From Ostreococcus lucimarinus (Eukaryota), in NCBI GenBank assembly GCA_000092065.1, contig CP000583.1: a stretch of 64,000 nucleotides of DNA; one strand, given 5' to 3'. Position numbers and translations under genes: made by a program. Of the stretch, positions 11,801 through 42,600 are shown one piece after another. The notes beneath the pieces are model-generated. The model saw only the letters and a list, made by a program, of their open reading frames with translations. It was not told where the DNA came from and did no database searches. Numbering within the stretch: the stretch's first letter is position 1; every line of letters begins with the position of its first letter.

Positions 11801-14800
11801 TCCTGAGCGCGGAGATCTTCTTCAGCTCTTTGTTTTGCTTGGAGTTCAGCCTTGAAAGCTTCACGACGAGCAAGCTCGGAGGCCCACGCAGCGTCTTCGT
11901 CGGAGCGCATCTTTGTAATGCGTTCTTCCTCGGCGTTGCGACGAGCGTCTTCCTCGGCCATCTTCTTTCTCTCGGCTTCCGCAGCAGCACGAATAACATC
12001 TTCCGCTTCTTTAGCTCTAGCATCTTCTCTGGCGCGACGAGCTTGTTCTTCTGCGTCGCGACGCGCTTGTTCGCGATCCCAATCGGCACGGCGTTGATCT
12101 TCACGAGCTCGAGTGCGTGCCTCGTCTTCTTCGCGACGACGAAGCTCGTCAGCTGCGCGGGCTCGGCGATTCTCCTCCGCAACGATAGCACGCTCGAGCG
12201 CTTCTTTTCGCGTGCGACTCTCGCCTTCTTGCGCGCGACGTTTATTCTCGGCCTCCATACGTAACCGTTGCTCTTGTTGCTCCATGTCCCGCAACTTTTG
12301 CTCTGCGGCGACGCGACGGCGATTTTCAGCTTCCACTCTTTCGGCTTCCTTGCGCACAGCCTCGGCAGCAGCAGCATCGGCTTCACGTCGACGGCGCTCT
12401 TCCTCTTCACGCTTTCTACGCTCTGCTTCAGCAGCAGCCAAAAGGTCTTGCTTGGCTTGTTTACGTCTCGCTTCTTCCGCTTCACGTTGAAGCTGTTCCT
12501 TCGTCTTGAATTCATCCTTGTTGATGATGAAATCGATGCGACGAGAATCTTCAGAAGTGCGTCGCAGACCTTCTTGGGAATTGAAAATCAAATTCGCCTT
12601 GTCTTGTTCTTGCTGACGACGTGTTTCTTCTTCCTTCTTAGCCGCTTCTTCTCGAGCAAGTTCTTCTTCATGACGCTTATTTTCGGCACGACGTTGATCC
12701 TCTTCGGCACGAAGTCGGTTTTCAGCTTCTCGCGCAGCTCGAGCGGCATCGTCGTAAGCACGTCGACGCGCATCTTCGGCTTCTCTTTTGCGGCGTTCAG
12801 CATCCTCAGCGGCCTCAGCTTGCGCCTCGACACGAGCGCGCCGTTGATCTTCATCAGCAATTTTGCGCTTTTCAGCCTCTTCGAGGATCTTGATTTCTTC
12901 AAGTCGAGATTTGTGGTTGGCCTCAGCAGTGGCGATGCGTCGCACCTCTTCAGCGTTGATTCGAGCGATCTCTTGAGCATACTTTTGCCGTCGGTTTTCT
13001 TCCGTATCCTTAAGACGAATACCAAGCTGCTTGAACTCTTCAAGGGCTCGACGCTTAGCGGCGAGATCATCGTCCTCTGCCTTTCGCCGATCGCCTTCTG
13101 CCTTTGCAGCGGCTCGCATCGCAGCTTGCGCGTTCGCGGCGCGAATTTCTTCAGCCTTAAGCGCAGCTTCGATGTCTTGCTTTCTGCGATCAGCGTCATT
13201 TTCGGCAGCGATGCGTCGATCTTTTGTATCGCGTTCGAACTTGACAATCGCTTCCCGGAGAGCGTTGATGGCAGCTTCGGCTTCGCGGCGGCGCTTGTCC
13301 TCGTCGTCGCGACGCTTTGCCTCGTCATCCTCCATTTGTAGAAGCTTACGCGCAGCATCATCACGACGACGTTCCTCCGCAGCTTGACGATCGGCTTCTT
13401 CGCGTTCAAGACGCGCACGTTCATCATCAACTGCGCGTCTGATGTCTTCACGAGCCTGCTCTCGCCGGGTATCCTCCGTTTCCTGGAGACGCCTCTCTTC
13501 TTCAAGCTCACGCGCGTGTTCGTCATCCCACGCTCGTCGTCGAGCTTCTTCAGCGGAACGATCGGCGGCGAGAGCATCTCGCATACGTTGAATTCGAGCC
13601 TCAGCTTCCGCACGACGCCGATTTTCTTCATCTTGCAAACGAGCCTCCTTCTCCAAAAGAGATCGCGTCTCGGTGTCGAATCTTGCTCGAAGATCGGCCT
13701 CGAGTCCCTTCGCCTTCTCAAAGTTATTCTTCGCCAAGTTGATATCTTGTTCACCTTGCGCGCGGCGTAGTTGAATAGAGTTGCGAAGGGCATCGATTTC
13801 CTTTCGGCGGCGTTCGATTTCTTCGCGCAATTTCGCGACTGAAACGGGTGCGCCATCATCGCCACCCATGAGGTCCTCGAGGTCACCCTTTTGTGTCTCA
13901 GTGATGACCTTAGTCGTGATGATCTCTTCCGAGTAAATGGCTTCACATTCGTCGTACAGCCTATCGATCCTCTCCTTCTCGAGTCGACGACGTCTGTTCT
14001 CTTTACGCCGCTCGTTGTTTTCATCCTCGACAGCCTTTCGAAGAGCCTCCTCGGCTTCCTTGCGGCGTCTATCTTCCTCCTTGCGAAGTTTACGCTCGCG
14101 AGCATCGATTTCGTCGTGGTATTCCTCGTCCGGCAATTCTTCACGCCTACGGGCGAGACGCGTGTTCACCTTCTCTCGCGTCGTGATTATCGTCTTCTTC
14201 GTTCGTCCATCAAAGCTGTACGCTACCGATGTTGTGACGGTGCCTGCGGCGTCTCCGATGGATGCCGCGACTTCACCGAGCCTCACCGGCTTCATCTCAA
14301 GCAAGTGAATGAAGAGATAGACGATGAAAGCAATCGCAGCACCGATAATACTTGCGTACTCCATGTTCACTACGTACGTGTAGAACGCGCCAGAACCCGA
14401 GAAGGCACCGGCTTCGATCAAATAGGAAACACCAGAAATGAGTGAAAGCAAGTTGGGCGCCGCCGCGACGGCAATGGCAATCATGGCGCGTGGATTCACG
14501 CCCTTAAAGAACCAATATGGACCCTTAGTATCGCGCGTCTGCATTGCTCGTCGCGATAATTTGCCAGCACGCATAAGCCAGAAGTCACACAAAATCACAC
14601 CGAGCACGGGAGAGACTAACAACGAACCAACGCCAATGATCCACGAGGCAGCGGCGACGACTTGTTGCCACATCAACTGAGCCGGCGCAAAGAGGCCGAC
14701 AGCGCAGGTGATGATGAGCGCTGCTTGCTTGGACGAGATCGTACCACCAAGATAGTTCTTGGTCTTTGCCCACGGAAGCGAGAATTCTTGCATATACTCC

Positions 14801-15783
14801 TGCGGACCAACGACGTTTGCGGCACTGTTCGTCACGAGCGAGGCGATGGCAATGGACGCAAATAAAATCGGCTTCGGCGCTTGCGCCATGGCCGCGGCGA
14901 CGATAGCAAACAAACCGGACAGCAAGGGAAGCCAGAAAAACTGACCAATAGGTGCAGTTCTAGAGCCCTTGATGTGCGCTGTGTAATCTGGATACACGCT
15001 CGCGAGCGTCACCCAAACGCCCACCATAAGCCAAGCGTGCTTCCAGAACTCGTTCGGCAAGGCGCCCGGCATACCCGCGGAAATCAACGAACCGATCGCG
15101 GTCTGAGGAATACCTTGACGCAAAGTCCAAGCGATGAAACCTGCCACGAGCGCTAAGACGGTCTGACCAGACGCGAGAAGTCTCGATGAAGGGACGGTGC
15201 GCAAGGAAATTGCGAGCTGCACCACCCAAAACATCGCGTACGACATCGCTCGCACGACTACATCGCTTTCGATACTCGCGGCGATAAACGTCGTTTTGAA
15301 CAATCCGAACACCGCTTCGCCCCCGACCAAAGTTTGCACGGCGTAGAGCAAGAATCCAAGCGTCGCGCGACAGGCGTCGGTGAACTCCGCCCCCCAAATC
15401 CCGAAACTCGAACGCGCCAGGATCGGCATATTCAGTTCGTACTTCGCCGCGGGGTATCCGATTGCAGAGATAAATGGCATCGCCATCAAAGTACCGAGCG
15501 CTGTCGCCAAACCGAGTTCATACCAGAGCAACGGCGCGAGCGTGTGCAAGTTCCACCGAACGAAACCGTACGGCACCGAATACATCACCGCGCACGTCGC
15601 CAGCGCCGCCCACAGCGAGAGTTCCTTGCCCTTCTCGATCGCATTCTCCTCCGTCGTCGGCGGGATGATCAAATCCTCGTCCCCAGGCGCGACGATGAAC
15701 CCTTCGTCATCCTTATCGTCGTCGCCGGTTTGATCGGCGTACCCCAATCCGACGGCGTTCGCGCGCGTCGACGCCTCCCTCAT
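8899..15783 (-). CDS. giant multi-domain protein: N-terminal NCS1-family permease-like 12-TM domain, about 1,600-aa E/R/K-rich charged coiled coil (single alpha helix-like), (AKAKADAEA)n repeat, C-terminal helical domain
   Basis: Single stop-free track ORF 8899..16101 (2400 aa) with coding-like composition throughout. I choose ATG at 15783 (MREASTRANAVGLGYADQTGDDD...). The membrane domain contains NMPILARSSFGIWGA, reminiscent of the LARSSFGI(Y/F)GS motif of Fur4/Dal4-type NCS1 permeases. The middle is RRKEAEDARRRAYDD...-type E/R/K repeats. The KA repeat lies at about 9740-10030. Confidence 0.55.
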   Translation of the reverse strand: MREASTRANAVGLGYADQTGDDDKDDEGFIVAPGDEDLIIPPTTEENAIEKGKELSLWAALATCAVMYSVPYGFVRWNLHTLAPLLWYELGLATALGTLMAMPFISAIGYPAAKYELNMPILARSSFGIWGAEFTDACRATLGFLLYAVQTLVGGEAVFGLFKTTFIAASIESDVVVRAMSYAMFWVVQLAISLRTVPSSRLLASGQTVLALVAGFIAWTLRQGIPQTAIGSLISAGMPGALPNEFWKHAWLMVGVWVTLASVYPDYTAHIKGSRTAPIGQFFWLPLLSGLFAIVAAAMAQAPKPILFASIAIASLVTNSAANVVGPQEYMQEFSLPWAKTKNYLGGTISSKQAALIITCAVGLFAPAQLMWQQVVAAASWIIGVGSLLVSPVLGVILCDFWLMRAGKLSRRAMQTRDTKGPYWFFKGVNPRAMIAIAVAAAPNLLSLISGVSYLIEAGAFSGSGAFYTYVVNMEYASIIGAAIAFIVYLFIHLLEMKPVRLGEVAASIGDAAGTVTTSVAYSFDGRTKKTIITTREKVNTRLARRREELPDEEYHDEIDARERKLRKEEDRRRKEAEEALRKAVEDENNERRKENRRRRLEKERIDRLYDECEAIYSEEIITTKVITETQKGDLEDLMGGDDGAPVSVAKLREEIERRRKEIDALRNSIQLRRAQGEQDINLAKNNFEKAKGLEADLRARFDTETRSLLEKEARLQDEENRRRAEAEARIQRMRDALAADRSAEEARRRAWDDEHARELEEERRLQETEDTRREQAREDIRRAVDDERARLEREEADRQAAEERRRDDAARKLLQMEDDEAKRRDDEDKRRREAEAAINALREAIVKFERDTKDRRIAAENDADRRKQDIEAALKAEEIRAANAQAAMRAAAKAEGDRRKAEDDDLAAKRRALEEFKQLGIRLKDTEENRRQKYAQEIARINAEEVRRIATAEANHKSRLEEIKILEEAEKRKIADEDQRRARVEAQAEAAEDAERRKREAEDARRRAYDDAARAAREAENRLRAEEDQRRAENKRHEEELAREEAAKKEEETRRQQEQDKANLIFNSQEGLRRTSEDSRRIDFIINKDEFKTKEQLQREAEEARRKQAKQDLLAAAEAERRKREEEERRRREADAAAAEAVRKEAERVEAENRRRVAAEQKLRDMEQQEQRLRMEAENKRRAQEGESRTRKEALERAIVAEENRRARAADELRRREEDEARTRAREDQRRADWDREQARRDAEEQARRAREDARAKEAEDVIRAAAEAERKKMAEEDARRNAEEERITKMRSDEDAAWASELARREAFKAELQAKQRAEEDLRAQEERRREDHANEVSRKRQEIDDFIRDLERRRREADAAAKAALEAEAQRVTEFRKSREEAIAEDERLRAEDAAERLREDAKLLQMREELKKLVRDEAMRRAEEEARRKAMDKKIADQKAIDDDIIAKEDARRDRFRDELPDILDKFRAELEAKEEFLQTQEEMRRKQAADAIAQKEAAEKQRRADFDAQCERKQKEIDDFAAKIKALFNAEEARRAEFRKMMEERQRKEDARRLAAASPIAIDNMMQNLNATITQMESQLQILIPELQALEKTAAANYEEFKARRAQSQMSIERTVTEEQTRTHNEDGRHAAVCAEADAAVRAERALREEEDARRKVAEMRIKQLEAELAAIIAEIDARRLAWNAETLSRRDSEWAARQDEDTRRFFNQTETEGVLFKESSTISFEESRRLEAVAAAERAEELRIATAAAEAERVAASERRKQLALDEEESRRKAAEAAKKDSKKQAEDLKRQAEEQRRAKEQAEKEAAAKAKQAEEEAARAKKKADEDAKAAAKRAEEEKKRLEKEQEEKRKQAEKEAAEAKRRAEKEAEERRKAEAKAQEEAAKAQKAAEEAKRKEAELAKRKAEEEAKAAKAKADAEAKAKADAEAKAKADAKAKAEAEAKAKAEAEAKAKADAKAEAEAKAKADAEAKAKADAEAKAKADAEAKAKADAQAKTKADAQAKAKAEAVAAEAKAKADAAAAAERAAEQAEAASKPDNEVTDERASRLQKRLEKSASKEEIEEVVLELSEDEDPIAATLILQGAANVEAAATALAALWRAKDTRGAEALMGLDLTRAATLIDIMVENLGDAEAAIGLVNMSEPGRMVGVAEFVLPYYLRSVVYNGVEILRVVANRNVKTAKVIYAGLEIEEQVSIVRRASLGFGARPGVEKPEDKPEPDVKLAATLLTGLTPSAAVDVLRTFSTTGVNKGSPKWKRRQDVIVEVLDAFKDIGPGEDSIAELIRDRLKL
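9738..10030 (-). repeat. in-frame coding tandem repeat (27-nt period) encoding (A-K-A-K-A-D-A-E-A)n inside the giant protein
   Basis: Visible as gcctttgccttggcctctgcatccgcc units on the plus strand. Antisense track ORFs 9593..10108, 9663..10031 and 9679..10068 are artefacts of this repeat. Confidence 0.85.
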
Positions 15784-16171
15784 CCCCACGCCTCGCCTTC
15801 GCGTCCCACCCGCGCACGCGGCCTCCCACGCCAATCCACATCGTTTCTTTCCTCCACCGACCACGCGCGCGACGACCGTCGCGCCCCGCGCGCGCGCCCC
15901 GCCCCCCGCCGTTGCCGCATGCGATTGCCCAACGATTGATTTCGCAAATGTCCCGATCGACCCCGCCCGTCGCCCGCTCTCGCGCGCGCCGCTCCGCCGC
16001 TCCGCCGCCGCGCTCGCGGCGGCGCGCAGCGCCATTCGCGCTCGCGCTCGCGACGACTCGCGCGTCCGCGCCACGCACGTCCGCGCGCGCGGCGTTCTCA
16101 CGCGCGCGAAGAGCGAGCGAATTTAAGGGATCGTCGACGAAGATACGACGTCGCGGCGGTTCGCGCGCGTC

Positions 16172-23624: not shown

Positions 23625-24380
23625 TTAGGACATCGAAAAGACGATGTACAGCGTGTAAAGCATCATGCAAGGATACGTCACGATCATGCGTTTGCCCTCC
23701 GACTGCGGCATCGCCTGTATCAACCCCACGCTCGCCTTTCTCGAGCTCCACGTCACGCAGAGCACCGCGAGCGCCTTGCTCAACATCCCAGTTTTCGAAG
23801 GTAAAAACAGCACGATCCCACTGTACCCCACCACGGGCAGCAGCGCGTAGCCTAAAATACTCCCGCACCGGTTCAACCCGATCCCTTCCCCTCCGCCGAT
23901 GATTTGGTTCAACAACCAGTACATCCCGAGCGACGCGAGCGTGCTCCAACCCAAAATGTACCCAAAGTGCAACTTCCCCGCCAGTAAGTTACACGCGCCC
24001 ATGACGAGACAAAACAACAGCGGTCCCGCGAGATCTTCATCCGTGCTATCCTCGACCCTGAACGGATGCATCACACCCATCGTCCGACGATAAATCTGCT
24101 TCGGATCCACGCCGAGTTCCTCGAGCAACGGCACCTCGTCCTCGACGTGCGCGTACGACCCTCCCACGTCGCCGTCGCGCGCCCCGAACCCGAACCCACC
24201 GCCCTGGTGTCCCGAGCCGTGTCCACCACCCCCCCCGTACCCGTGCGAGCCCGAACTCGTCGCTCGCGGCGCGTACGCGTCGTAGTTCGGGTACGCCTGC
24301 GCGCGATTAAAATCCATAAACTGCATGTTCGCGTTCGCGCCCTGCGCGCCCTGCGGCATCGGTCGCGGTATGTCCGCCAT
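23625..24380 (-). CDS. Yip1-domain Rab-GTPase-interacting membrane protein (YIPF5/Yip1-like)
   Basis: Gly-rich N-terminus followed by DEVPLLEELGVDPKQIYRRTMGVMHPFR...DLAGPLLFCLVMGACNLLAGKLHFGYILGWSTLASLGMYWLLN...VTYPCMMLYTLYIVF, which aligns with YIPF5 along its length. ATG at 24380 (MADIPRPMPQG...) checked. Confidence 0.8.
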   Translation of the reverse strand: MADIPRPMPQGAQGANANMQFMDFNRAQAYPNYDAYAPRATSSGSHGYGGGGGHGSGHQGGGFGFGARDGDVGGSYAHVEDEVPLLEELGVDPKQIYRRTMGVMHPFRVEDSTDEDLAGPLLFCLVMGACNLLAGKLHFGYILGWSTLASLGMYWLLNQIIGGGEGIGLNRCGSILGYALLPVVGYSGIVLFLPSKTGMLSKALAVLCVTWSSRKASVGLIQAMPQSEGKRMIVTYPCMMLYTLYIVFSMS

Positions 24381-24587: not shown

Positions 24588-25243
24588 ATGGTGCGTGACC
24601 TCGAGCGAGCGACGAAAGACGACGCGAGCGCGAACGACGCGCGCGCCGGTGGCGCGCGACGGCCGGGACGCGCGTCGGGCGGACGCGCGCGGACGGAACG
24701 ACCGCGGACGAGACGCGGCGATCGCGACGACGCGCGCGCGCGTTCGAGGGCGGTCGCGCGCGATGCGATCGTCGCGCGCGCGGTCGGCGCGCGCGGATGA
24801 AGGGTGGATATCGTGAATTCGACGCCGGCGCGGCGCGCGGCGGCGACGGCGGCGGTGGGAGGGCGACGGGCGGGCGATGGGGGGGCGCGGCGCAAGCCCT
24901 AGAGTCGACGACGGCGCGAACGCGACGCGCGGAGGACTGACCGAGACGTTTTATCGACGCAGCCGTCCAACAAGACTTTCAAGGTGAAGAAGATTTTGGG
25001 GAAGAAGCAAAAGCAAAACCGCCCGCTTCCCCAATGGATCCGCATGCGCACGGGTAACACCATTCGGTACGTACGCGTTTAGGTTTTTTCGCGCGACGAG
25101 CGCCGACGAGTCGCGCGAACGACGCGATCGATGACGCGATTTTGACGACGACGACGCGCGAGTACTGACGATGATGATGTGTTCGTACGCGCAGCTACAA
25201 CGCGAAGCGTCGACACTGGAGACGCACCAAGCTCAACTTGTAA
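24588..25243 (+). CDS. RPL39: 60S ribosomal protein L39e, three exons: 24588..24590 (ATG only), 24963..25066, 25195..25243
   Basis: ATG is followed directly by donor GTGCGT at 24591. Acceptor ...cgacgcag precedes 24963. Exon 2 encodes [35 protein letters not shown] plus 2 nt, with donor GTACGT at 25067. Acceptor gcgcag precedes 25195. Exon 3 encodes (R)[15 protein letters not shown] followed by stop TAA at 25241-25243. The spliced 51-aa product matches eL39 nearly residue for residue. No track ORF covers it. Confidence 0.85.
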
Positions 25244-25591
25244 GCGAGCGCGGTGGGATTTGTGTAGACGAACGAGCAGAGTCGTGTTCGACGTCGGCGC
25301 TCTCGAGCGGAATAGCGTTCTGTAGTGGAACTCGCGCGAGGGCACGAACGGAGATGAGACGAACATCGCACGTAACTTAGCGATTTAAGAAGCAGAATTA
25401 GTTCTTCCTCATCGCGTCGCGCGACGCCGACGCGTCCGCCCGCCCGCGCCGTCGTCTCGTCCCCCGAACGCGCCCTCGCGCGCGCGACGACGTCACGACG
25501 CGCGCGCGACCGCACTCCCATCACTCGCAGTATTATTTCGTATTATTTCAATCTTCATCCATCGCGATCCCGCTTCGCGCGCGATCTCGTC

Positions 25592-25924
25592 TCAACCGTC
25601 GGCGCCTTCGCTCGCGCATCCGTCCCCCTCCCGCGTCGACGTCGCGTCCCCCTCGCGCGCGCCTCGCTCGTCCGGTTCCCTCGCGCTGTCCTCCGTCGTC
25701 CCCTCCCCCATCGCGCGCCCCTCGCTCCTCGTCGCCGCCGTCCCGCCCGCGTCCCGCCGCCGCGCCTCCTCCGCGCTCTTCCGCATCGCCCAATCCGCGC
25801 TGTCGAAGTGTTTCACGTCCGTCGCGATCAACCGCGGTTTCGGTCGCAGATCGTCGCCGTACTTCGCCCTGAACGCGCGCTCCGCCTCCGTCGCCGCCGT
25901 CGCCGCCGTCGCCTCCCGCGCCAT
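25592..25924 (-). CDS. endosulfine/ARPP-19-like small protein (putative Greatwall-kinase substrate / PP2A-B55 inhibitor)
   Basis: In-frame segment of track ORF 25592..28027. ATG at 25924 (MAREATAATAATEAERAFRAKYGDDLRPKPRLIATDVKHFDSADWAMRK...). It parallels the ENSA core EAKLKAKYPSLGQKP...KGQKYFDSGDYNM, including the FDSGDY-type phospho-site motif. The tail is acidic, Gly-rich and disordered. Confidence 0.5.
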   Translation of the reverse strand: MAREATAATAATEAERAFRAKYGDDLRPKPRLIATDVKHFDSADWAMRKSAEEARRRDAGGTAATRSEGRAMGEGTTEDSAREPDERGAREGDATSTREGDGCASEGADG

Positions 25925-26701
25925 GTCGCGCGTCGCGCGATGCGCGCGATCGCGCGACGCGCGCGCGGCGCCATCCGACGTGGCGGGGCGCGCGCGACGG
26001 ATTCGCGCCGCGCGACTGTTTGCGCATACGACAGAGGGTTCGTCTCGAGTCGCGAACGGTCGACGCACGCGCTCGCGCCGGCGCGCGCGAAACGACGAAT
26101 CGTGACTCGTGACTCGATAAACGACGAATCGTGACTCACGACTCGATGGCCGGCGTCCATACGTACCCCCCGACTCTTGAGTCACGATCGGTCGTTTCAC
26201 AACCCTCGACACGAGGCTCGAATCCGCCGGCGTCGACGTCCGCGCGCGACGCGCGACCGACCGCGCGCGCGACGCGAGATCGCGGCGCGTTCGCGCGACG
26301 AGCGACGCGCTCGAGCGCGTCGACGTCGGCGTCGCGCGCCGAGCGAAAGCGCCGCGCGCGCGCGCGAACGCGGCGACGCGACGGACGCGAATCATCGATC
26401 GCGGGCGTCGATCGCGCGATTCGTCGCGGCGATCGATCGACCGATCGCGGGCGCGGACGCGCGCGAAGACGCGCGGGAGGGCGCACGCGCGGGCGCGGGA
26501 CGCGGGATGCGCGCGGCGGTGACGCGGGCGACGCCGGGGGGGCGCGCGGGCGAGGCGAGCGGGCGGGGGGGAGGGAGGGCGCGCGCGGGGACGCGCGGGA
26601 CGCGGGCGACGCGGGGACGCGCGCGATTCGTGGCGACGCGCACGAGCGGTAGCGTGGGGGACGCGGAAGCGCAGGAGGGAGATGAGCCGGACGTGAACGA
26701 T

Positions 26702-28432
26702 ATGTTCGCGGCGGCGGCGAATGAAATGCAGGCGTCGGAACGATTGGAGCGGGACATTCCGGAGTCGATGACGGTGAGGAAGTCGGCGCCGAGGACGATG
26801 GCGTCGTTCGACGGCGCGGACGAGGATGATGAGGGGAACACTGTGTTGGAAACCGTTCTCGATGTCGCGCGCGATCCGGAGAAGGTCATCAAGGGCGTTG
26901 CCGCGGCGGTGACGTTGGGGACGGCGTACACGGTGGCGAGCGAGCCGGCCTTGGCCGCGGGAGGGGCGGCGGCGGCGCTCCTCGTCATCAAGGTTCTCGA
27001 AGCGTTGGCGAAGGAGGGAGATCAAACTCCGGCTGAATTCCAAGCGTCGCTTAAGAAGGATATCAAACCGTTGATGGAAAAGTTGCCGAAAGATTTCGAC
27101 GCGGAGGCGCTCACGAAGAAGGCGTCGGAGACCGGGGCGAAACTCTTTGAAAGGGCGCAGTCGGTGACTGATTCTTTCGATGAGGTGTTTGGTGGGTTGA
27201 ACTTTGGTGGCGACGCAGACGATGAAGCCGAAGCCGCGGCTTCCAAGTTGCTTGAAATCCGTAGGGCGGACGAGAAGGCTGCGTTGGAAGCGCAAGCCGC
27301 CGAAGACGCCGCGGCGTCGTTCGCCGAAACCGAGGCCAAGGCCAAGGCTGACGCTGCCGCCGCCGCCGCCGCCGCCGCCGCTGAAGCCAAGGCGAAGGCT
27401 GACGCCGAAGCCGCGAAGATTGCCGCCGAAGCCAAGGCGAAGGCTGACGCCGAAGCCAAGGCGAAGGCTGACGCCGAAGCCGCGAAGATTGCCGCCGAAG
27501 CCAAGGCGAAGGCTGATGCCGAAGCCAAGGCGAAGGCTGATGCCGAAGCCAAGGCGAAGGCTGACGCCGAAGCCGCGAAGATTGCCGCCGAAGCCAAGGC
27601 GAAGGCTGACGCCGAAGCCAAGGCGAAGGCTGACGCCGAAGCCAAGGCGAAGGCTGACGCCGAAGCCGCGAAGATTGCCGCCGAAGCCAAGGCGAAGGCT
27701 GATGCCGAAGCCAAGGCGAAGGCTGACGCCGAAGCCAAGGCGAAGGCTGACGCCGAAGCCGCGAAGATTGCCGCCGAAGCCAAGGCGAAGGCTGACGCCG
27801 AAGCCGCGAAGATTGCTGCTGCCAAGGCGAAGGCTGACGCCGAAGCCAAGGCGAAGGCTGATGCCGAAGCTGCGAAGGTTGCCGCTGCCAAGGCAAAGGC
27901 TGATGCCGACGCCGAAGTTAAGGCGAAACGCGCGGCTGAAGCTGAAGCCAAGAAGCGCTCGCAAGAGGAAGCCGAACAGAAGGTTGCGCAACAAGTGATG
28001 GCGGCACAGAAGGTGGCGAAGAAACAAGAAGAGTGGGAGAACTCTTTGCTAAAATTGCAGTACAGCGAGCAGATCATTGAAGATATTCGCGTCGCGGACG
28101 CAAACGCGGTTGAACGCGCGCATGCGCGTCGCCTCGGATTGGATTTCACCCCAGAAGTGGCAAAACAAATGCCAGGAACCGAGTACTCTTGGGGCTCGCA
28201 GACGAACGTCAAACCTGGTGAAGTGATCAGCGCTTTGAACTCCGCCGATGAAGGTTTTGCGTCGTCGAAGAACCGCGCTCGTTCGGCGCTCGGATTGCCG
28301 CAGAAAGACGACCAGCCGGTGGCGGAGAAGCAAGAGCCGTGGTGGGCGACTTTCATAAGAGTTTTCGTGAACATGTTGATCGCTGCCGCCATCGCTGCGT
28401 TCACGTACTTGGTCGTTCGTAGCATGCTGTAA
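26702..28432 (+). CDS. tail-anchored coiled-coil protein with ([11 protein letters not shown] / AEAAKIAA)n repeats and a C-terminal TM helix
   Basis: Coding-like part of track ORF 26177..28432, from ATG 26702 (MFAAAANEMQASERLERDIPESM...). The repeat block is about 27340-27900 (27-nt period with 24-nt variants). The C-terminus WWATFIRVFVNMLIAAAIAAFTYLVVRSML is a terminal TM helix. The 5' 525 nt of the ORF are GC-rich and probably UTR. Confidence 0.6.
   Translation: MFAAAANEMQASERLERDIPESMTVRKSAPRTMASFDGADEDDEGNTVLETVLDVARDPEKVIKGVAAAVTLGTAYTVASEPALAAGGAAAALLVIKVLEALAKEGDQTPAEFQASLKKDIKPLMEKLPKDFDAEALTKKASETGAKLFERAQSVTDSFDEVFGGLNFGGDADDEAEAAASKLLEIRRADEKAALEAQAAEDAAASFAETEAKAKADAAAAAAAAAAEAKAKADAEAAKIAAEAKAKADAEAKAKADAEAAKIAAEAKAKADAEAKAKADAEAKAKADAEAAKIAAEAKAKADAEAKAKADAEAKAKADAEAAKIAAEAKAKADAEAKAKADAEAKAKADAEAAKIAAEAKAKADAEAAKIAAAKAKADAEAKAKADAEAAKVAAAKAKADADAEVKAKRAAEAEAKKRSQEEAEQKVAQQVMAAQKVAKKQEEWENSLLKLQYSEQIIEDIRVADANAVERAHARRLGLDFTPEVAKQMPGTEYSWGSQTNVKPGEVISALNSADEGFASSKNRARSALGLPQKDDQPVAEKQEPWWATFIRVFVNMLIAAAIAAFTYLVVRSML
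27340..27900 (+). repeat. coding tandem repeat array (27-nt units gccgaagccaaggcgaaggctgacgcc, interspersed with 24-nt gccgaagccgcgaagattgccgcc units)
   Basis: Direct repeats visible in the sequence. Antisense track ORFs 25592..28027 (upper part), 27022..28479, 27111..27896 and 27204..27998 are artefacts of the repeat. Confidence 0.85.
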
Positions 28433-31734: not shown

Positions 31735-32271
31735 ATGCCGGCGGTGGACGACCCGAAGTGGCGCGACGACGAGCGCAAGGGCGCGCCGGTCGTCACGCTG
31801 CACACGACGCACGGGGACGTGACGGTGGAGCTGTACTATAAACACGCGCCGCGGACGTGCGAAAACTTTTTCGAGCTCGCGAAGCGCGGGTACTACGACG
31901 GGACGATCTTCCATCGCGTGATCGCGGAGTTCGTGATCCAGGGGGGGGATCCGACGGGGACGGGGCGGGGGGGGGAGAGCGCGTTCGGCGGGACGTTCGA
32001 GGACGAGATAAGCCGAGGGCTGAGGCACGTGGGGGCGGGGATTTTGGTGATGGCGAATAGCGGGCCGAACACGAATAAGAGTCAGTTTTTTATCACGCTC
32101 GCGGCGACGCCGTGGTTGGACGGGAAGCACGCGATATTCGGTAGGGTTGAAAGCGGGATGCACGCCGTGCGCGCGATCGGGGCGGTGAAAGTTGATAAGA
32201 ATGATCGACCGACGAAGGAGGTGAAGATTGTCGGCGTCACGTGCGACGATCGAGGATTCAAGTGGTACTGA
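31735..32271 (+). CDS. PPIL1: cyclophilin-type peptidyl-prolyl isomerase, PPIL1-like
   Basis: VTLHTTHGDVTVELYYKHAPRTCENFFELAKRGYYDGTIFHRVIAEFVIQGGDPTGTGRGGESAFGGTFEDEI...GAGILVMANSGPNTNKSQFFITLAATPWLDGKHAIFGRV is the PPIL1 pattern. ATG at 31735 and TGA at 32269-32271. (CGATT)x3 sits at 31691-31707 in the 5' UTR. Confidence 0.9.
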   Translation: MPAVDDPKWRDDERKGAPVVTLHTTHGDVTVELYYKHAPRTCENFFELAKRGYYDGTIFHRVIAEFVIQGGDPTGTGRGGESAFGGTFEDEISRGLRHVGAGILVMANSGPNTNKSQFFITLAATPWLDGKHAIFGRVESGMHAVRAIGAVKVDKNDRPTKEVKIVGVTCDDRGFKWY

Positions 32272-32332: not shown

Positions 32333-33262
32333 TTACGTCAAATCGTCTCCGGCGTCTTCGTCCGTGGTGTCGCCCGTGGGGAGGTCGGCGCCCATCTTCG
32401 TAGCGACGGCGCCGAGCTCGTGTTTCGGATTGGGGAGCTTGCGCGCCAGACGCGAGAACACGATGTCCAAGAAGCGCGCGCACGAGCTATCCTCGATGGC
32501 GTACTTGATTTTATCCGCATCCGCCGCGCGATACGCGGTGAGCAACCTATACGCGGTTTCTCGCTCTTCGCTCTTGTCGAACCCGGGCAACTCGTGCACG
32601 TCGTTAAACGTCGCCTGCGCGCCGACGCCGTCGCCGTCGTACAATAACGCTATGATGGCGCTCAAATATGCCTTGGCTAAAGAATTCATCTGACCAGCGC
32701 GCGCGCACGATGCCCCGTACTTGACGCACGCCTCGGCTGCGTCTTGATACCGCTCTGCTCGCACCAACGTCGCCCCCAACTGCTTGTGATGGTCGCTGGC
32801 GTACACGTCTTTCCCATCTTCCTGCAAATTCTCGACGCAAAGCATCAACAGCGCGGCGGACGTCTTCGTATCGCTCGTTTCCAACAATCTCGCGGCCCGG
32901 CTCAGCGACTCCGCGCCGACTTGCGTGCGATTCGCCATGACGTACGCGTCGTTCGCTCGTTCCGCCATCTGCAACACCGCGCCGCCGTCCAAAGGTTCAC
33001 ACTTCGTCAACAACTCCGTCGCCCTCTCCAGCGCTTTACCCGCGTGCCAGTAATTATCGAGTCGCACGTTCGCGTCTGCGCTCTTCTCCTCGGCCTCGCA
33101 CGCCATTTTGAAGTTATTCGACGCTCGGTACGCGCGCGCGGCGTCTTCATAGAGTTCGATCGCTTCGTCGTAATTTGGTTTCCAGCGCATCAACGACGGT
33201 TTCATGCGCGCATCTGCGCGCTTCATGAGATTCTTGGCGTATATCTCGTTCGTGTTGGACAT
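32333..33262 (-). CDS. soluble NSF-attachment protein, gamma-SNAP-like (TPR-like SNAP family)
   Basis: MSNTNEIYAKNLMKRADARMKPSLMRWKPNYDEAIELYEDAARAYRASNNFKMACEAEEKSAD... matches the SNAP N-terminus (KxxFLKWKPDYDSAASEYxKAAVAFK) with the helical repeats continuing. ATG at 33262 checked. Confidence 0.8.
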   Translation of the reverse strand: MSNTNEIYAKNLMKRADARMKPSLMRWKPNYDEAIELYEDAARAYRASNNFKMACEAEEKSADANVRLDNYWHAGKALERATELLTKCEPLDGGAVLQMAERANDAYVMANRTQVGAESLSRAARLLETSDTKTSAALLMLCVENLQEDGKDVYASDHHKQLGATLVRAERYQDAAEACVKYGASCARAGQMNSLAKAYLSAIIALLYDGDGVGAQATFNDVHELPGFDKSEERETAYRLLTAYRAADADKIKYAIEDSSCARFLDIVFSRLARKLPNPKHELGAVATKMGADLPTGDTTDEDAGDDLT

Positions 33263-36134: not shown

Positions 36135-36941
36135 ATGTCCGTCGACGACACCACGCTCGCGCGTTCTTTCTCCCTGCGCGGTGCCACCGCCGTCGTCACC
36201 GGTGGCACGCAAGGCCTCGGAAAAGCCATCGTCGAAGCGCTTTGCCATCACGGCTGCCGCGTATTCACCTGCGCACGCACGGCGGGAGACGTCGAGACGT
36301 GCGTCGAGGACTGGCGGCGCCGTGGATACGACGTCGATGGGTGTGTTTGCGACGTCAGTGACGCGAACGCGCGAGAAGAACTCGCGCGGAGGGTGTCGGA
36401 AAAGTTTTCGGGCGAGTTGAACATACTGGTGAGCAACGTGGGCTTTAACATTCGAAAGCCGACGGTGGAATTCACGAGCGAAGATTACCAAAGGCTGATG
36501 CGGACGAACTTAGAGGCATCATTCGAGCTTTGCAAGAGGTTTCACGCGATGTTGAAGGCGAGCGGTGATGGGAGGATCGTATTTAATTCATCCGTCGCCG
36601 GCCTCGTGTCTATCCAGAGCGGCGCTCTGTATGCAATCTCGAAGGGTGCCATGAATCAACTGACGAAGAGTCTGGCGTGCGAGTGGGCGAAAGATAACAT
36701 TCGTGTGAACGCCGTCGCGCCTTGGTACACCAACACGCCGCTCGCGAAGCAGGTGCTGAAAAACCAAGTCTACCTCAAAGCCGTCGTGGACCGAACGCCG
36801 ATGGGTCGCGTCGGCGAGCCTCACGAAGTCGGCGCCGTCGTTGCGTTTCTATGCATGCCCGCGTCCTCGTACGTCAACGGTGTCATCGTGCCAATAGATG
36901 GCGGTTTCACCGTCCACGGGTTCATCCCGCCCAAATTGTGA
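36135..36941 (+). CDS. short-chain dehydrogenase/reductase, tropinone-reductase-like
   Basis: [13 protein letters not shown] (TGxxxGxG), NILVSNVG, catalytic S...[16 protein letters not shown] at 36135 and stop at 36941. Confidence 0.85.
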
Positions 36942-39681: not shown

Positions 39682-42600
39682 TCAACACTCCGCGCGCAAC
39701 GCCTCGAGGATGAAATCGTTCACCGTCGGGCACATGGCGTCGGAGAGGATCTCACACACGTCTAAAAGCTCTTGCGCATCTTCCGCGTCCATCGCTTCGT
39801 CGAGCCATTCGAGAGTGTCTTTCGCACCGGATATCATGGAAGGGATATCGTGGAGTCGCTCGTTCAGGGTGACGGCTTCCGGCGAGCCCGTCGTCGTGGA
39901 CGCCGGCGCTTTGCCGATGGTCACCGCGTTTCCGAGGTCCGGTCGACGTTTAGGTTTGAACCACTCAAACATTTTGTTCACCAAACCGAAATAAATCAAC
40001 ATCGGTTTTAGCTTGGCGTAGCGATCGAGTTCGTTAAGCTGTTCCCACGGAACGCTCGCAGAGACGTCGACGCTCGCCGGGTACGTCGCGATTCTCGCGC
40101 ATTCGTACTTCTTCGTGTGCCTCAAAATCGCTATCAGCGCGTTGCGTCGAGACGCTTCCCATTGATCGTGCGACCAGACCGCGAGCGAAAGCACGAGTGC
40201 TGCCGGTAGGAGCGGTGAAAAGCTAAACTCGCGATCGTTCCATATCTCATCTTCGCACGAAAGGCGGGCTAGCACGGCGTTGTACTCTTCCAATCCTTTC
40301 TGCGGGCACAATGAGACTTGATGGACGAGCAATCGCACGAGGTGCGGAAGGAGACTCATGTTGCTATCTTTTCCACCGCCACGACAGTCAGCGCTGAACG
40401 ACGCCCCCATGGCGAATCGACCGAGAAGTAGGCTGACGTCCCAAGCGACTTGTCGCGCGCGCGTCGGCGGCGAAATGAACGCGCCGACAGAGAAGCAATT
40501 TTGCCACCACGCATCTACCGCGGCGGCGTATGAAGCATCTGTGACCATATTCCCCATCACCGGTAGCAAGTTGTTGCATAGTGTCTCACTGTTGCGTAAC
40601 GCAGCGCCTTCCCACTCGCGCTTGGGAGTTCTCAACGCGACGTCCGCGCGCTTGGCGGATTGGTGACACGAAAAGTGAATCGCGTTGAAGTGCGATACAG
40701 TGCATACAGTCTGAGACATATCTCCGTTCGCAGATGGAGTTGATGCAAGTTTATTGAAGCAATAGATCCCGAGAAGCTCGTTCGGTTTCAACACGTATCC
40801 TTCAAAGCAAACTCTACAAACAATTGAGTCTTGTTCGCTTTCCATAGCCATCGAGTCGTACCCTCGCAGAGATCTGGGAGAGTGAGAGACGCCGATGGTA
40901 GACGCTCCCGGACTCGAGGAGTTTTTGACTACTGTCATGCCCATTTCAGTGAGCATTTGTTGGCGCTTTGCGAGTGCCTTGCGACGATTCGCTTCTTTCG
41001 TCTCTGCTCGCAAATTATCCAAATGTTTCTGTACCAACTCGGATCCGCTCGCAAACGTCTCCAGACAGTTCTCTGCCAAAGTTCCAATATCACGCTCGGT
41101 GACTGATTCAAGTTTATGTAGTAAGTCAAGCAGTGTCGGATGTTTGGTGACGTCGAGAGTGTAGCCCAGTGTGATTCCGTTCAAAAGCTCGAGCGCAAGC
41201 GGTAAGCCACTCCGCTTCATCGCCTTATTCCACGCGTCAGAACCACGATCTTGAGACATTTCTGCCCCGAAAGCTTCAGCTTCGATGTAATTCGTGATAA
41301 ACGACACAGTTCCTTGTGACCATATCGCTTCAAGCACGCGTTGACCTGAAAAATCTCGCGGGATCGCTTCAGCCAATCTCGTTGCACATTCGAGCTCGAG
41401 CTGTAGCGCACCGTGCTGAGAGTCTTCCTCGCTCATCTCGTCAAGACGTACAAGTTTACGAATGGAAGCGTCAAAGTTCTTCGCCATGATTGCTTTTGAT
41501 TCAACGGTTGATCCCGCGAGCCTTGGAATCACACGCGCGAGGATATCGGCCTCATGCCTCTCTCGTGCTCGAATGAGCTGCTTGAGTTGAGACAGGAAAA
41601 TTTCAACGTGATTCATCTCGTGCTCGCGCACCGCTATCGCAATCGTCTGCAGCGAAGAACTACTTTTTTGAAGGCGCGGTGAACCAGGACGATGCGCTGT
41701 TTCGCTGCTCTCTTCTAATTCGCGAGCGAGCATACTGCTCGTCGATGCTGACGCTTTCAATTCACTCATTGATCCGTGGGAAGTGTCTTCTTGTTCCTCG
41801 CGCAACAGCGTCTCAATGACGAGAAGGAGTCCCTTGCCTGAACGCGAGTTCTCAGTGAAAGCTCGCGCGGCTTCGTCAAGTAAACTTGCGAGCGCTCCAA
41901 TCGCGAGCATATGTTGTCTATTCTTCTTCACGTAGCATGCTGATCGAAGGATTTCAAGAAGTTTTGCCGAAGCGTCTTCACCGCCGGCGTACAATGCAGA
42001 TGAATTGTGCCGAATCTTTGGTAACAGTTGAATCAAAGTTTTAAAGCCAACATCTTCTTGGAAAACATTTGTGCCAGCAAACTTTGTTTCGATGTCTTCG
42101 TCTTCCTCTTGTACCGGCGCGAGTTCATCAACGCGCTCTTCCGTCGCTTCGCCATCCAAACCGCTCAGGCGGAAAGTCACCGCCATTGGTGGACCGATTG
42201 GATCGTTTGGAGAAACATTTTGACGTCGCTGAGTGCCATTGAATAATGAAGGTATCCAAATTCGTTCGAAAACATCTTCCACGGAGAGATCAAGGCTGAT
42301 TATTTGATTCGAAACCAATAACTCCATCCCAAAATCATCTTCGAGCAGGCCTAACATTTCCAACTCATGACAGATGAGATTCTTGACATCTCTCATCAAC
42401 GGCTGCGCGCTCATTTGTGCAGTCGAGTATGGATTTCGCGCCATCGTGCCGGGAATGAACTCTTCTTGACTCGCACTTTTCAGTAGTCGTAAAAGATACA
42501 CCTTCGATGGCGGAGCTCGAGGTAATACCAACATCGCAAGTTCATTCAATATGATGCACAGTGGCAGACGCGTCTTGTCAACTTGGGGTCGAACATGCGC

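What the first reader, a model, noticed from the sequence alone, without database searches (positions are those of the whole stretch)
25592..25924. Endosulfine/ARPP-19-like Greatwall-substrate gene embedded in GC-rich DNA
A 110-aa frame contains AERAFRAKYGDDLRPKPRLIATDVKHFDSADWAM. This parallels the ENSA/ARPP19/Igo core (KAKYPSLGQKP...KGQKYFDSGDYNM) including the Ser phosphorylated by Greatwall/Rim15. ENSA-family proteins are cell-cycle and quiescence switches that inhibit PP2A-B55. The gene sits on the strand opposite a repeat-protein 5' region and only appears as a segment of an 811-aa artefactual ORF.
Basis: partly seen in the sequence, partly recalled or inferred. Interest (0 to 1): 0.5.

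Follow-up and report, generated by a model that had tools for sequence, protein, structure and literature searches.

The report
Endosulfine-family gene in Ostreococcus
The 110-codon frame is a real, conserved gene of the tiny marine green alga Ostreococcus lucimarinus that belongs to the known endosulfine/ARPP19 family of phosphatase-inhibitor switches, so it is an ordinary member of a known family and not a new kind of thing.

Summary
Window 25592-25924 (-) encodes a 110-aa protein with AERAFRAKYGDDLRPKPRLIATDVKHFDSADWAM, and it forms the tail of a mechanical 811-aa ORF. The window is Ostreococcus lucimarinus CCE9901 nuclear DNA.

The Endosulfine assignment holds. Pfam PF04667 gives E 1.2e-6 but 28.9 bits, just under the 29.8-bit cutoff. 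An HMM built only from distant members plus human ARPP19 hits this frame alone among 1056 six-frame ORFs (E 1.3e-10). All 24 aligned sequences (the window protein and 23 homologues) match PF04667. The gene is syntenic in four divergent relatives. dN/dS is 0.02-0.24 in the motif core and about 1 in the tails. An RNA-derived contig covers the orthologue in a sister clade.

All ARPP19 residues that hold the phosphoserine in the PP2A active site are conserved (K, aromatic, F, D, S42, D). The animal B55-platform helix is replaced by a shorter proline-rich linker, as in Chlorella relatives. The PKA site is absent.

The sister species O. tauri has a Greatwall-lineage IRE kinase. Presence of B55, phosphorylation of Ser42 and PP2A inhibition were not shown. 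The family is already reported as conserved across plants, and the O. tauri orthologue is in databases as 'unnamed product'. Interest is low.

The parts
25592..25924 (-). Single-exon CDS of the endosulfine/ARPP19-family protein (110 aa plus TGA stop)
   Evidence: PF04667 matches at E 1.2e-6, and the distant-member HMM at E 1.3e-10. The exact product is gene-called on contigs in at least 43 blocks of public assemblies, Tara Oceans among them. Orthologues are syntenic in L005-L008.
25775..25885 (-). Conserved core, residues 14-50 (AERAFRAKYGDDLRPKPRLIATDVKHFDSADWAMRKS), the only part under strong purifying selection
   Evidence: dN/dS is 0.02-0.24 among Ostreococcus-clade orthologues although synonymous sites are heavily diverged. 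Against L006, 18 of about 24 synonymous sites differ versus 7 of about 87 non-synonymous sites. The invariant columns are F18, K21-D24, P28, P30-A34 and D36-R48.
25790..25813 (-). K38-H-F-D-S42-A-D-W45, the motif equivalent to ARPP19 K58-Y-F-D-S62-G-D-Y65. The Ser42 codon (AGC) is at 25799-25801
   Evidence: The register comes from the alignments. In the PP2A:B55-ARPP19 structure Y59 binds B55, F60 binds PP2Ac, D61 and D64 form salt bridges to PP2Ac, and phospho-S62 sits over the catalytic metals (PMC10765524). The AF2 model starts a helix exactly at S42, in its most confident block.
25847..25918 (-). Predicted N-terminal helix (residues 3-26) containing the AERAFRAKYG motif, the counterpart of ARPP19 helix alpha2 (EEAKLKARYP)
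   Evidence: AF2 predicts a helix at 3-26. hhalign and MAFFT place it against ARPP19 residues 22-37. ARPP19 residues 25-41 bind the top of B55.
25802..25846 (-). Proline-rich, non-helical linker (residues 27-41, RPKPRLIATDVKHFD) standing where animal ARPP19 has the B55-platform helix alpha3. It is 7 residues shorter
   Evidence: A 7-column gap falls opposite ARPP19 GGSDFLR. AF2 predicts no helix at 27-41. The same short spacing is seen in Chlorella P0079 and P0086 and other distant members.
25595..25774 (-). Fast-evolving, predicted disordered C-terminal tail (residues 51-110). It has no PKA-type site and a small semi-conserved [ED]-D-S-A-[RM]-[ED] patch at residues 77-82
   Evidence: Tail dN/dS is 0.7-1.1. 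pLDDT is about 47-57. The EDSAR patch is visible in alignment A1.
25530..25547 (-). Tandem AATAATACGAAATAATAC element 45-62 nt downstream of the stop codon, in the region between the convergent ENSA-like and RPL39 genes. Possibly a 3'UTR element; function unknown
   Evidence: The element is unique in the window with 0 expected by chance. It is present at the same relative place in L001-L006 and in L089, L090 and L092-L101. It is absent from L007 and L008.

Best explanation
Window 25592-25924 (-) is the Ostreococcus lucimarinus orthologue of the endosulfine/ARPP19/Igo family. It is a small, mostly disordered protein. Its one strongly conserved segment consists of an N-terminal amphipathic helix (AERAFRAKYG), a short proline-rich linker, and the motif K-H-F-D-S42-A-D-W, which opens a second helix.

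The most likely mechanism, inferred from homology, has three steps. First, an AGC kinase of the Greatwall/MAST lineage phosphorylates Ser42; in the green lineage this would be the IRE-type kinase. Second, the phosphoprotein docks on PP2A-B55 with phospho-Ser42 in the catalytic site. F40, D41 and D44 hold it there, and H39 plus the N-terminal helix contact B55. Third, it acts as a tightly bound, slowly dephosphorylated pseudo-substrate that holds PP2A-B55 off while CDK substrates stay phosphorylated, at mitotic entry or at a nutrient- or light-gated transition.

Shown here: the gene is real, it is protein-coding in this frame, it is under purifying selection on the motif, it is orthologous across the clade, it is homologous to ENSA/ARPP19, and the PP2Ac-contact residues are conserved. 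Inferred: the identity of the kinase, the phosphorylation itself, binding to B55, and the physiological role.
For: Family assignment:
- PF04667 is the only Pfam hit (E 1.2e-6), and all 24 aligned sequences hit it.
- The HMM built from distant members finds only this frame, at E 1.3e-10.
- hhalign against PDB-validated human ARPP19 aligns in the correct register at E 3.8e-5.
- The broader profile's only PDB hit is ARPP19 chain 8ttb_D, though weak at E 2.5.

Real gene:
- Core dN/dS is 0.02-0.24 against about 1 in the tails.
- The gene order MJ1567-like, repeat gene, ENSA-like, RPL39, Yip1, methyltransferase, pseudouridine synthase is conserved in L005-L008.
- The exact product is called on many marine metagenome contigs.
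- RNA-derived contig L090 has RPL39 intron 2 cleanly spliced out and covers the whole orthologous CDS, starting 45 nt upstream of its ATG.

Mechanism:
- The ARPP19 residues that position pS62 (K58, Y59, F60, D61, D64, M67, K69) correspond to K38, H39, F40, D41, D44, M47 and K49.
- AF2 puts helices at 3-26 and 42-58, matching ARPP19 alpha2 and alpha4.
- The Greatwall site is described as FDS*G/AD across eukaryotes including plants.
- O. tauri has a single IRE kinase, annotated 'serine/threonine-protein kinase Greatwall' and phosphorylated at a Ser-Pro site, and it has PP2A.
- Plants have B55, and plant ENSA is considered to keep PP2A-B55 inactive at mitotic entry.
Against: - The Pfam score is 0.9 bit below the gathering threshold.
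- BLASTP against human ARPP19 is not significant, and the narrow clade profile finds no PDB ARPP19.
- Of the six residues of the animal B55-platform helix alpha3 that are needed for B55 binding (F48, L49, R50, R52, L53, K55), only L53 has a similar counterpart (I33). The rest fall in a 7-residue deletion or a Pro-rich stretch. B55 docking must therefore differ from the solved complex, or be weaker.
- Plants are reported to lack a separate MASTL orthologue.
- No phosphopeptide from the O. tauri orthologue was found in two phosphoproteome supplement sets, although those files were cut when stored.
- A B55 gene could not be assigned to Ostreococcus with these tools.
- The strand of the transcript evidence cannot be determined.
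Confidence: 0.8

Rival explanations
1. It is a true ENSA/ARPP19 homologue, but the regulatory logic has diverged. Ser42 would be phosphorylated by a kinase outside the Greatwall/MAST lineage, or not at all. Alternatively the protein would engage PP2A or another PPP phosphatase without the canonical B55-platform contact, so that it is not a Greatwall-to-B55 mitotic switch in this alga.
For: The B55-platform helix alpha3 of ARPP19 is not conserved, being replaced by a shorter Pro-rich non-helical linker. Plants have no separate MASTL. The basic residue at -7, noted for ARPP19/ENSA, is T35 here. No phosphopeptide from the orthologue was detected in the O. tauri datasets. A Chlorella relative carries the name 'Negatively light-regulated' and not a cell-cycle name.
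Against: Every residue that places the phosphoserine in the PP2Ac active site is invariant across the clade, and it is hard to see why otherwise. The alpha2-like helix that also binds B55 is retained. O. tauri has an IRE kinase classified as Greatwall. The short linker is shared with Chlorella and other non-animal members, so it is the normal form of the family outside animals and not a local loss.
Confidence: 0.15
2. The 110-aa model is incomplete. The conserved segment would be one exon or one part of a longer protein, for example with an N-terminal extension into the 25925-26395 region of the same open frame or an unrecognised spliced exon.
For: The frame stays open upstream for 700 codons. 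Some metagenome gene calls are longer, at 124-271 aa (P0001-P0003, P0145, P0191). The neighbouring RPL39 gene shows that this genome has introns, including a 3-nt first exon.
Against: In every lineage the orthologues start within about 10-25 residues upstream of the AERAF helix and are 85-121 aa long. The O. tauri reference model is 91 aa. The sequence upstream of the ATG is not conserved as protein. The RNA-derived contig L090 begins only 45 nt upstream of the ATG. The upstream open frame is explained by the GC-rich, stop-poor intergenic DNA and by the antisense of the repeat gene.
Confidence: 0.04
3. It is a chance open frame in GC-rich, stop-poor DNA that happens to contain an FDSxD-like string, and so is not a gene.
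For: The local GC is 0.70-0.81, and overlapping ORFs of more than 100 aa occur in several frames here. The Pfam score is below the gathering threshold.
Against: The distant-member HMM gives E 1.3e-10 and the shuffles reach at most 13.3 bits. There is strong frame-specific purifying selection, synteny across four divergent lineages, and an annotated O. tauri orthologue.
Confidence: 0.01

Closest known systems
Human/Xenopus ARPP19 and ENSA (PDB 8TTB chain D; Greatwall/MASTL substrates, PP2A-B55 inhibitors)
   Same: It is a small, largely disordered protein with an N-terminal helix carrying a KxKY motif. The motif K-[YH]-F-D-S-[GA]-D-[YW]-x-M-x-K has the phospho-acceptor Ser at the start of a helix. 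All PP2Ac-contacting residues (F, D, S, D) are conserved.
   Different: The linker between KP and the motif is 7 residues shorter and proline-rich, so the B55-platform helix alpha3 (SDFLRKRLQK) is not present as such. Gly becomes Ala and Tyr becomes Trp within the motif. There is no PKA site and no GxxxPTPxxP or C-terminal B55 site-3 region. Pairwise BLASTP is not significant.
Plant and green-algal ENSA/ARPP19-like proteins (Arabidopsis At1g69510 family; Chlorella 'Negatively light-regulated' P0079 and P0086)
   Same: The motif variant FDSADW is the same, and so is the short spacing KYG-x2-3-L/x-xK[KP]-x-L-x3-D-x-KHFDSADW. Proteins are about 85-110 aa and match the same Pfam family. The literature reports that ENSA is conserved across plants, with an FDS-G/A-D site.
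   Different: Identity to Chlorella outside the core is low (about 32-36% overall). The acidic, Gly/Thr-rich tail is specific to the Ostreococcus clade, and the Chlorella RRSS site near the C-terminus is absent.
Ostreococcus tauri XP_022838528.1 / CEF97179.1 / UniProt A0A090M4X3 ('unnamed product', 91 aa)
   Same: It is the direct orthologue. It clusters with P0021, whose core FRAKYGD-L-PKPRLIA-DVKHFDSADWAMRKS matches the window protein, and it is adjacent to RPL39, as shown by the consecutive accessions CEF97178 and CEF97179.
   Different: It is shorter, with a different tail, and P0021 is about 57% identical overall. Neither protein carries a functional name in the sources seen.
Yeast Igo1/Igo2 (Rim15 substrates controlling quiescence entry and cell size)
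   Same: They belong to the same family and, by the literature, use the same logic of a nutrient-regulated Greatwall-type kinase acting through endosulfine on PP2A-B55/Cdc55.
   Different: They were not compared at sequence level here. Any role in quiescence or cell size in Ostreococcus is untested.

Membership tests
Endosulfine/ARPP19 (Pfam PF04667; ENSA, ARPP19, Igo1/2) | Match to the Pfam Endosulfine HMM at or above the curated gathering score | tested here: inconclusive
   The score is 28.9 bits against a cutoff of 29.8, with E 1.2e-6, and PF04667 is the only family hit. All 24 aligned sequences match at E up to 0.01, best 6.3e-8. Every database homologue carries a precomputed PF04667 hit.
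Endosulfine/ARPP19 (Pfam PF04667; ENSA, ARPP19, Igo1/2) | Statistically supported homology to characterised or distant family members, independent of the Pfam threshold | tested here: met
   An HMM from Chlorella and other distant members plus human ARPP19 gives E 1.3e-10 and 37.4 bits, and this frame is the unique hit among 1056 ORFs. Shuffles score at most 13.3 bits. hhalign against human ARPP19 gives E 3.8e-5 and probability 71% in the correct register.
Endosulfine/ARPP19 (Pfam PF04667; ENSA, ARPP19, Igo1/2) | Invariant core motif FDS[G/A]D with the phospho-acceptor serine | tested here: met
   F40-D41-S42-A43-D44 are invariant in all 24 clade sequences, and F, D, S and D are invariant in the 16-sequence alignment that includes human ARPP19. 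The motif definition FDS*G/A D comes from bioRxiv 10.1101/2023.07.05.547804.
Endosulfine/ARPP19 (Pfam PF04667; ENSA, ARPP19, Igo1/2) | Upstream helix with the K-x-K/R-Y-[PG] motif | tested here: met
   R19-A-K21-Y22-G23 aligns with ARPP19 K33-A-R-Y-P. Y22 is invariant across all 16 sequences. AF2 predicts a helix at 3-26.
Endosulfine/ARPP19 (Pfam PF04667; ENSA, ARPP19, Igo1/2) | Small, largely intrinsically disordered protein | tested here: met
   The protein is 110 aa. AF2 mean pLDDT is 62.9, with only two helices and a tail at pLDDT about 47-57. The tails evolve near-neutrally. This rests on prediction, not measurement.
Endosulfine/ARPP19 (Pfam PF04667; ENSA, ARPP19, Igo1/2) | Serine of the motif phosphorylated by a Greatwall/Rim15/MAST-lineage kinase | not testable with these tools
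   A candidate kinase exists in the sister species: O. tauri IRE, ostta09g04190, annotated Greatwall. No phosphopeptide from the orthologue was found in the held O. tauri supplements. No such kinase is encoded in the window.
Endosulfine/ARPP19 (Pfam PF04667; ENSA, ARPP19, Igo1/2) | The phosphorylated form binds and inhibits PP2A-B55 | not testable with these tools
   The PP2Ac-contact residues are conserved. A B55 gene could not be assigned to Ostreococcus. B55 is known in plants.
Animal-type ARPP19/ENSA subfamily | B55-platform-binding helix alpha3 (SDFLRKRLQK; F48, L49, R50, R52, L53 and K55 needed for binding) | tested here: not met
   There is a 7-residue deletion opposite GGSDFLR. The remaining RLIATDVK keeps only I33 opposite L53. 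P28 and P30 precede it, and AF2 predicts no helix at 27-41. Chlorella and other non-animal members share this short form, so this feature defines the animal subfamily and not the family.
Animal-type ARPP19/ENSA subfamily | C-terminal PKA phosphorylation site (RKxS) | tested here: not met
   The tail has no basic-x-x-S site. The literature states this site is restricted to metazoans.

The most novel reading that the evidence does not exclude
Green-lineage endosulfines, of which this Ostreococcus protein is a minimal example, may dock on PP2A-B55 in a structurally different way from animal ARPP19. They would use the alpha2-like helix and a proline-rich extended linker in place of the alpha3 platform helix. 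They would be switched by the single IRE-type (pre-MAST/MASTL) kinase. In the smallest free-living eukaryotes this would form a stripped-down Greatwall-endosulfine-B55 module coupling light or nutrient status to division and cell size.
Probability: 0.2. Interest if true: 0.4.

Novelty: new member of a known kind. Interest (0 to 1): 0.15.

Why it matters
The practical value is mainly in annotation. No NCBI or UniRef protein containing this conserved core turned up for O. lucimarinus, and the O. tauri orthologue is labelled only 'unnamed product'. Naming the gene would complete the inventory of the Greatwall-endosulfine-PP2A module in a genus used as a minimal model for cell-cycle, clock and kinome studies.

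[quoted passage not shown] The gene is therefore a reasonable target for knock-out or S42A experiments.

None of this would surprise a specialist. [quoted passage not shown]

Tried and rejected
- **Pairwise and narrow-profile searches.** BLASTP of the window protein against human ARPP19 gave no significant alignment of the motifs. phmmer of the single protein and hmmsearch of the narrow clade profile against PDB found no ARPP19 or ENSA. Only the broader green-lineage profile found 8ttb_D, and weakly, at E 2.5.
- **Literature searches.** Searches for endosulfine plus Micromonas or Ostreococcus, for 'FDSADW', and for 'cAMP-regulated phosphoprotein' plus Ostreococcus found nothing specific. The one paper mentioning both Ostreococcus and endosulfine cites O. 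tauri only as the smallest eukaryote. Labandera et al. 2015 and Booker & DeLong 2017 are not held.
- **Phosphorylation evidence.** Two O. tauri phosphoproteome supplement sets contain no peptide from the orthologue, but the files were cut when stored, so this is a weak negative.
- **Greatwall or B55 in the window.** A Pfam survey of 20 further plausible genes found neither. The only kinase is a CDPK.
- **B55 in Ostreococcus.** A metagenome scan with PDB-validated human B55alpha returned the 80 best loci. Three had Ostreococcus-like GC. One of them (L076) looks fungal and the other two (L064, L074) could not be assigned. Inconclusive.
- **RNA genes near the locus.** No Rfam hit and no tRNA.
- **RNA-derived contigs for the window's own sequence type.** All ten places shown are genomic.
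- **'Unannotated in the reference'.** I considered this claim and did not adopt it. On the minus strand the accessions run from Yip1 (ABO95269) to SNAP (ABO95272), which leaves two unexamined numbers for the two intervening minus-strand genes.
- **Fold search.** Not run, because a model with pLDDT 63 for a disordered protein would give meaningless matches.

Full report
**1. Observation.** The minus strand of window 25592-25924 encodes MAREATAATAATEAERAFRAKYGDDLRPKPRLIATDVKHFDSADWAMRKSAEEARRRDAGGTAATRSEGRAMGEGTTEDSAREPDERGAREGDATSTREGDGCASEGADG, followed by TGA. The frame is the C-terminal part of a mechanical 811-aa ORF (25592-28027, -). The rest of that ORF is the antisense reading of a + strand gene made largely of a 24-nt (AEAKAKAD) repeat array at 27379-27870. 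The CDS does not overlap that gene's coding region. The two are divergent neighbours.

**2. Organism and neighbourhood.** The neighbouring cyclophilin (31735-32271 +), gamma-SNAP (32333-33262 -), SDR (36135-36941 +) and RPL39 products are exact matches to Ostreococcus lucimarinus CCE9901 RefSeq proteins on a 982,987-bp chromosome. The window is compact nuclear DNA of a prasinophyte green alga. It carries beta-amylase, a CDPK, coproporphyrinogen oxidase, a UBR4/BIG-like giant gene, JmjC, calreticulin and others. It encodes no Greatwall/MAST-type kinase and no PP2A-B55 subunit.

**3. More than chance, and a real gene?** Four lines of evidence say yes.
- Pfam gives Endosulfine (PF04667) as the only hit at E 1.2e-6, but 28.9 bits is just below the 29.8-bit gathering score.
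- I built an HMM from seven sequences that exclude the whole Ostreococcus clade (Chlorella and other distant hits plus human ARPP19). Searched against all 1056 six-frame ORF segments of the window, it hits this frame alone, at E 1.3e-10 and 37.4 bits, with the runner-up at 8.2 bits. The real protein scores 41.4 bits against a maximum of 13.3 in 999 scored shuffles. FDS[GA]D[YW] occurs once in the six-frame translation.
- The exact 110-aa product is gene-called on contigs from at least 43 blocks of public assemblies, including Tara Oceans samples. More divergent orthologues (45-76% identity) sit in the same gene order in four lineages.
- Codon analysis shows dN/dS of 0.02-0.24 for residues 14-50 among Ostreococcus-clade orthologues, even where synonymous sites are near saturation. 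The N- and C-terminal tails give about 0.7-1.1.

Selection therefore acts on this frame and is concentrated on the motif region.

**4. Transcript evidence.** None of the contigs carrying the window's own sequence type is RNA-derived. Contig L090 from a sister clade is at least 99% identical to genomic locus L006 except for a clean 128-nt deletion. That deletion exactly removes RPL39 intron 2, with GTACGT...CAG boundaries on the RPL39 strand, so the contig comes from spliced RNA. It covers the entire orthologous CDS and begins 45 nt upstream of its ATG. This supports transcription of the locus. An assembled contig cannot assign the strand, because the ENSA-like and RPL39 genes are convergent.

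**5. Family relationship.**
- All 23 close homologues carry precomputed PF04667 hits.
- The clade profile reaches Endosulfine-domain proteins of Chlorella, named 'Negatively light-regulated'.
- hhalign of a green-lineage alignment against human ARPP19 aligns residues 8-54 with ARPP19 22-74 in the expected register, at probability 71% and E 3.8e-5. My typed ARPP19 sequence was verified against PDB 8TTB chain D.
- ARPP19 is the only PDB hit of that profile, though weak. Pairwise BLASTP fails.
- F, D, S, D and the upstream Tyr are invariant across green-lineage sequences and human ARPP19.
[quoted passage not shown] 2015, as summarised in bioRxiv 10.1101/2023.07.05.547804). Arabidopsis At1g69510 is listed as the plant endosulfine (PMC5371999).

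**6. Anatomy against the solved complex.** In PP2A:B55-ARPP19 (PMC10765524):
- helix alpha2 (25-34) and residues up to 41 bind the top of B55;
- helix alpha3 (46-SDFLRKRLQK-55) binds the B55 platform through F48, L49, R50, R52, L53 and K55;
- Y59, F60 and D61 form a kink, with Y59 on B55, F60 on PP2Ac and D61 on both;
- thiophospho-S62 sits over the catalytic metals;
- D61 and D64 form salt bridges to PP2Ac;
- helix alpha4 (62-75) runs along PP2Ac.

The window protein keeps K38, H39, F40, D41, S42, D44, W45, M47 and K49 opposite K58, Y59, F60, D61, S62, D64, Y65, M67 and K69. AF2 (mean pLDDT 62.9) predicts helices at 3-26 and 42-58, an alpha2-like helix and a helix starting exactly at Ser42 as alpha4 does. 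The block covering residues 41-50 is the most confident.

The difference lies between them. A 7-residue deletion and a Pro-rich stretch (R27-P-K-P-R-L-I-A-T-D-V-K-H-F-D41) replace alpha3, and the model is non-helical there. Only I33 corresponds to a B55-contact residue (L53). Chlorella and other distant members have the same short spacing, so this is the ordinary non-animal form of the family and not a peculiarity of this gene. The tail lacks a PKA-type site and the C-terminal B55 site-3 region. It has only a small semi-conserved [ED]DSA[RM][ED] patch.

**7. Partners.**
- The O. tauri kinome paper lists one IRE AGC kinase (Ot09g04120) and PP2A (PMC4143559).
- In the O. tauri diel phosphoproteome tables the same protein (ostta09g04190) carries the annotation 'SERINE/THREONINE-PROTEIN KINASE GREATWALL' and is phosphorylated at ALGSLCAS*PSK, a Ser-Pro site (PMC10540734).
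- Plants are described as having MAST-lineage IRE kinases but no separate MASTL (PMC12024977). They have B55 subunits, with ENSA thought to keep PP2A-B55 inactive at mitotic entry (PMC10418862).
- No peptide from the O. tauri orthologue is in the held supplements.
- My attempt to find an Ostreococcus B55 in metagenome contigs was inconclusive.

The kinase-to-Ser42-to-PP2A-B55 chain is therefore an inference from homology.

**8. Annotation status and novelty.** The O. tauri orthologue is public as CEF97179.1 / XP_022838528.1 / A0A090M4X3, 'unnamed product', 91 aa. It sits next to RPL39 (CEF97178.1), matching the synteny. For O. lucimarinus, the exact 110-aa sequence is not in the clustered collection, and no member of the six close clusters has an NCBI or UniRef accession. 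However, the minus-strand accession run from Yip1 (ABO95269) to SNAP (ABO95272) leaves two numbers for the two intervening minus-strand genes. I cannot say the locus is unannotated. I can only say that no reference model containing the conserved core surfaced.

[quoted passage not shown] I rate it 'new member of a known kind', with interest 0.15.

**9. Side finding.** The apparent 1.2-kb gap between this gene and Yip1 holds a DNA block that stays alignable even in the most divergent relatives. It is the eL39 (RPL39) gene on the + strand, with three exons: 24588-24590 (the ATG alone, followed by GTGCGT), 24963-1066 in short form 24963-25066, and 25195-25243. Each acceptor is preceded by an ACTGAC or CTGAC branch point. 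The spliced 51-aa product matches PF00832 at E 6.8e-22 and is identical to XP_001416689.1, so it is already annotated. The ATG|GT microexon is conserved in four relatives.

Noticed in passing
window 24588-25243 (+): exons 24588-24590, 24963-25066, 25195-25243: This is the ribosomal protein eL39 (RPL39) gene. Its first exon is only the ATG start codon, followed by a GTGCGT donor and a 372-nt intron. A second intron of 128 nt follows, and both acceptors are preceded by CTGAC-type branch points. The gene explains a lower-GC block that stays conserved at the DNA level in divergent relatives. The spliced 51-aa product is identical to O. lucimarinus XP_001416689.1, so the gene is already annotated. 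Prokaryote-style gene callers used on metagenome contigs miss it and call spurious ORFs there instead.
   Followed up: yes
window 26507-28432 (+), repeat array 27379-27870: The divergent neighbour encodes a protein of about 575-640 aa with about 21 tandem copies of an 8-aa AEAKAKAD unit (24-nt period, with higher-order 69- and 93-nt periods) and a hydrophobic C-terminal segment (WWATFIRVFVNMLIAAAIAAFTYLVVRSML). It has no Pfam hit. Its called length varies between relatives (415-689 aa), which suggests variation in repeat copy number. Its antisense frame produces the 811-aa artefactual ORF.
   Followed up: partly
window 25530-25547 (-); L005:4410-4427; L006:526-543: The tandem element AATAATACGA(A/G)ATAATAC lies between the convergent ENSA-like and RPL39 genes. 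It is unique in the window with 0 expected by chance. It is retained in L006, whose synonymous sites are saturated relative to the window, but it is absent from L007 and L008. It may be a 3'UTR or termination element for one of the two genes.
   Followed up: partly
L090:1-1108 compared with L006:1-1300: This RNA-derived contig has RPL39 intron 2 spliced out, yet it retains the 3' part of intron 1. It also runs on through the convergent ENSA-like gene. Possible causes are overlapping convergent 3' ends, partly spliced RPL39 pre-mRNA, or read-through transcription.
   Followed up: partly
window 55150-56253 (+): This is a CDPK-type kinase with four EF-hands. Its ORF begins at Pfam Pkinase profile position 77 of 263, so the N-terminal part of the kinase domain must lie in an upstream exon or the start is elsewhere. 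An intron is likely.
   Followed up: no
window 39682-51111 (-), especially 42000-50000: A giant 3809-aa UBR4/BIG-like E3 ligase ORF coincides with the lowest-GC stretch of the window (0.46-0.51 against about 0.60-0.68 elsewhere).
   Followed up: no
window 8899-16035 (-): In this 2378-aa ORF only residues 169-544 match a known domain, a cytosine/purine permease. The remaining ~1800 residues fall in a region with strong AT skew (-0.32 to -0.33 at 10-14 kb) and lower GC. It is either a long low-complexity extension or a mechanical fusion of ORFs.
   Followed up: no
L090:46-507 (protein P0016): One public gene call for the orthologue is 153 aa because it reads through the TGA stop as an amino acid, which fits an alternative genetic code having been applied by the caller. 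The 108-aa call on the same contig is the correct one.
   Followed up: partly
window 23625-24359 (-): The Yip1-domain gene is 244-251 aa as an open frame here and in many assemblies, but the O. lucimarinus reference model in the same cluster is 'partial', at 173 aa (ABO95269.1). The reference model looks truncated.
   Followed up: no
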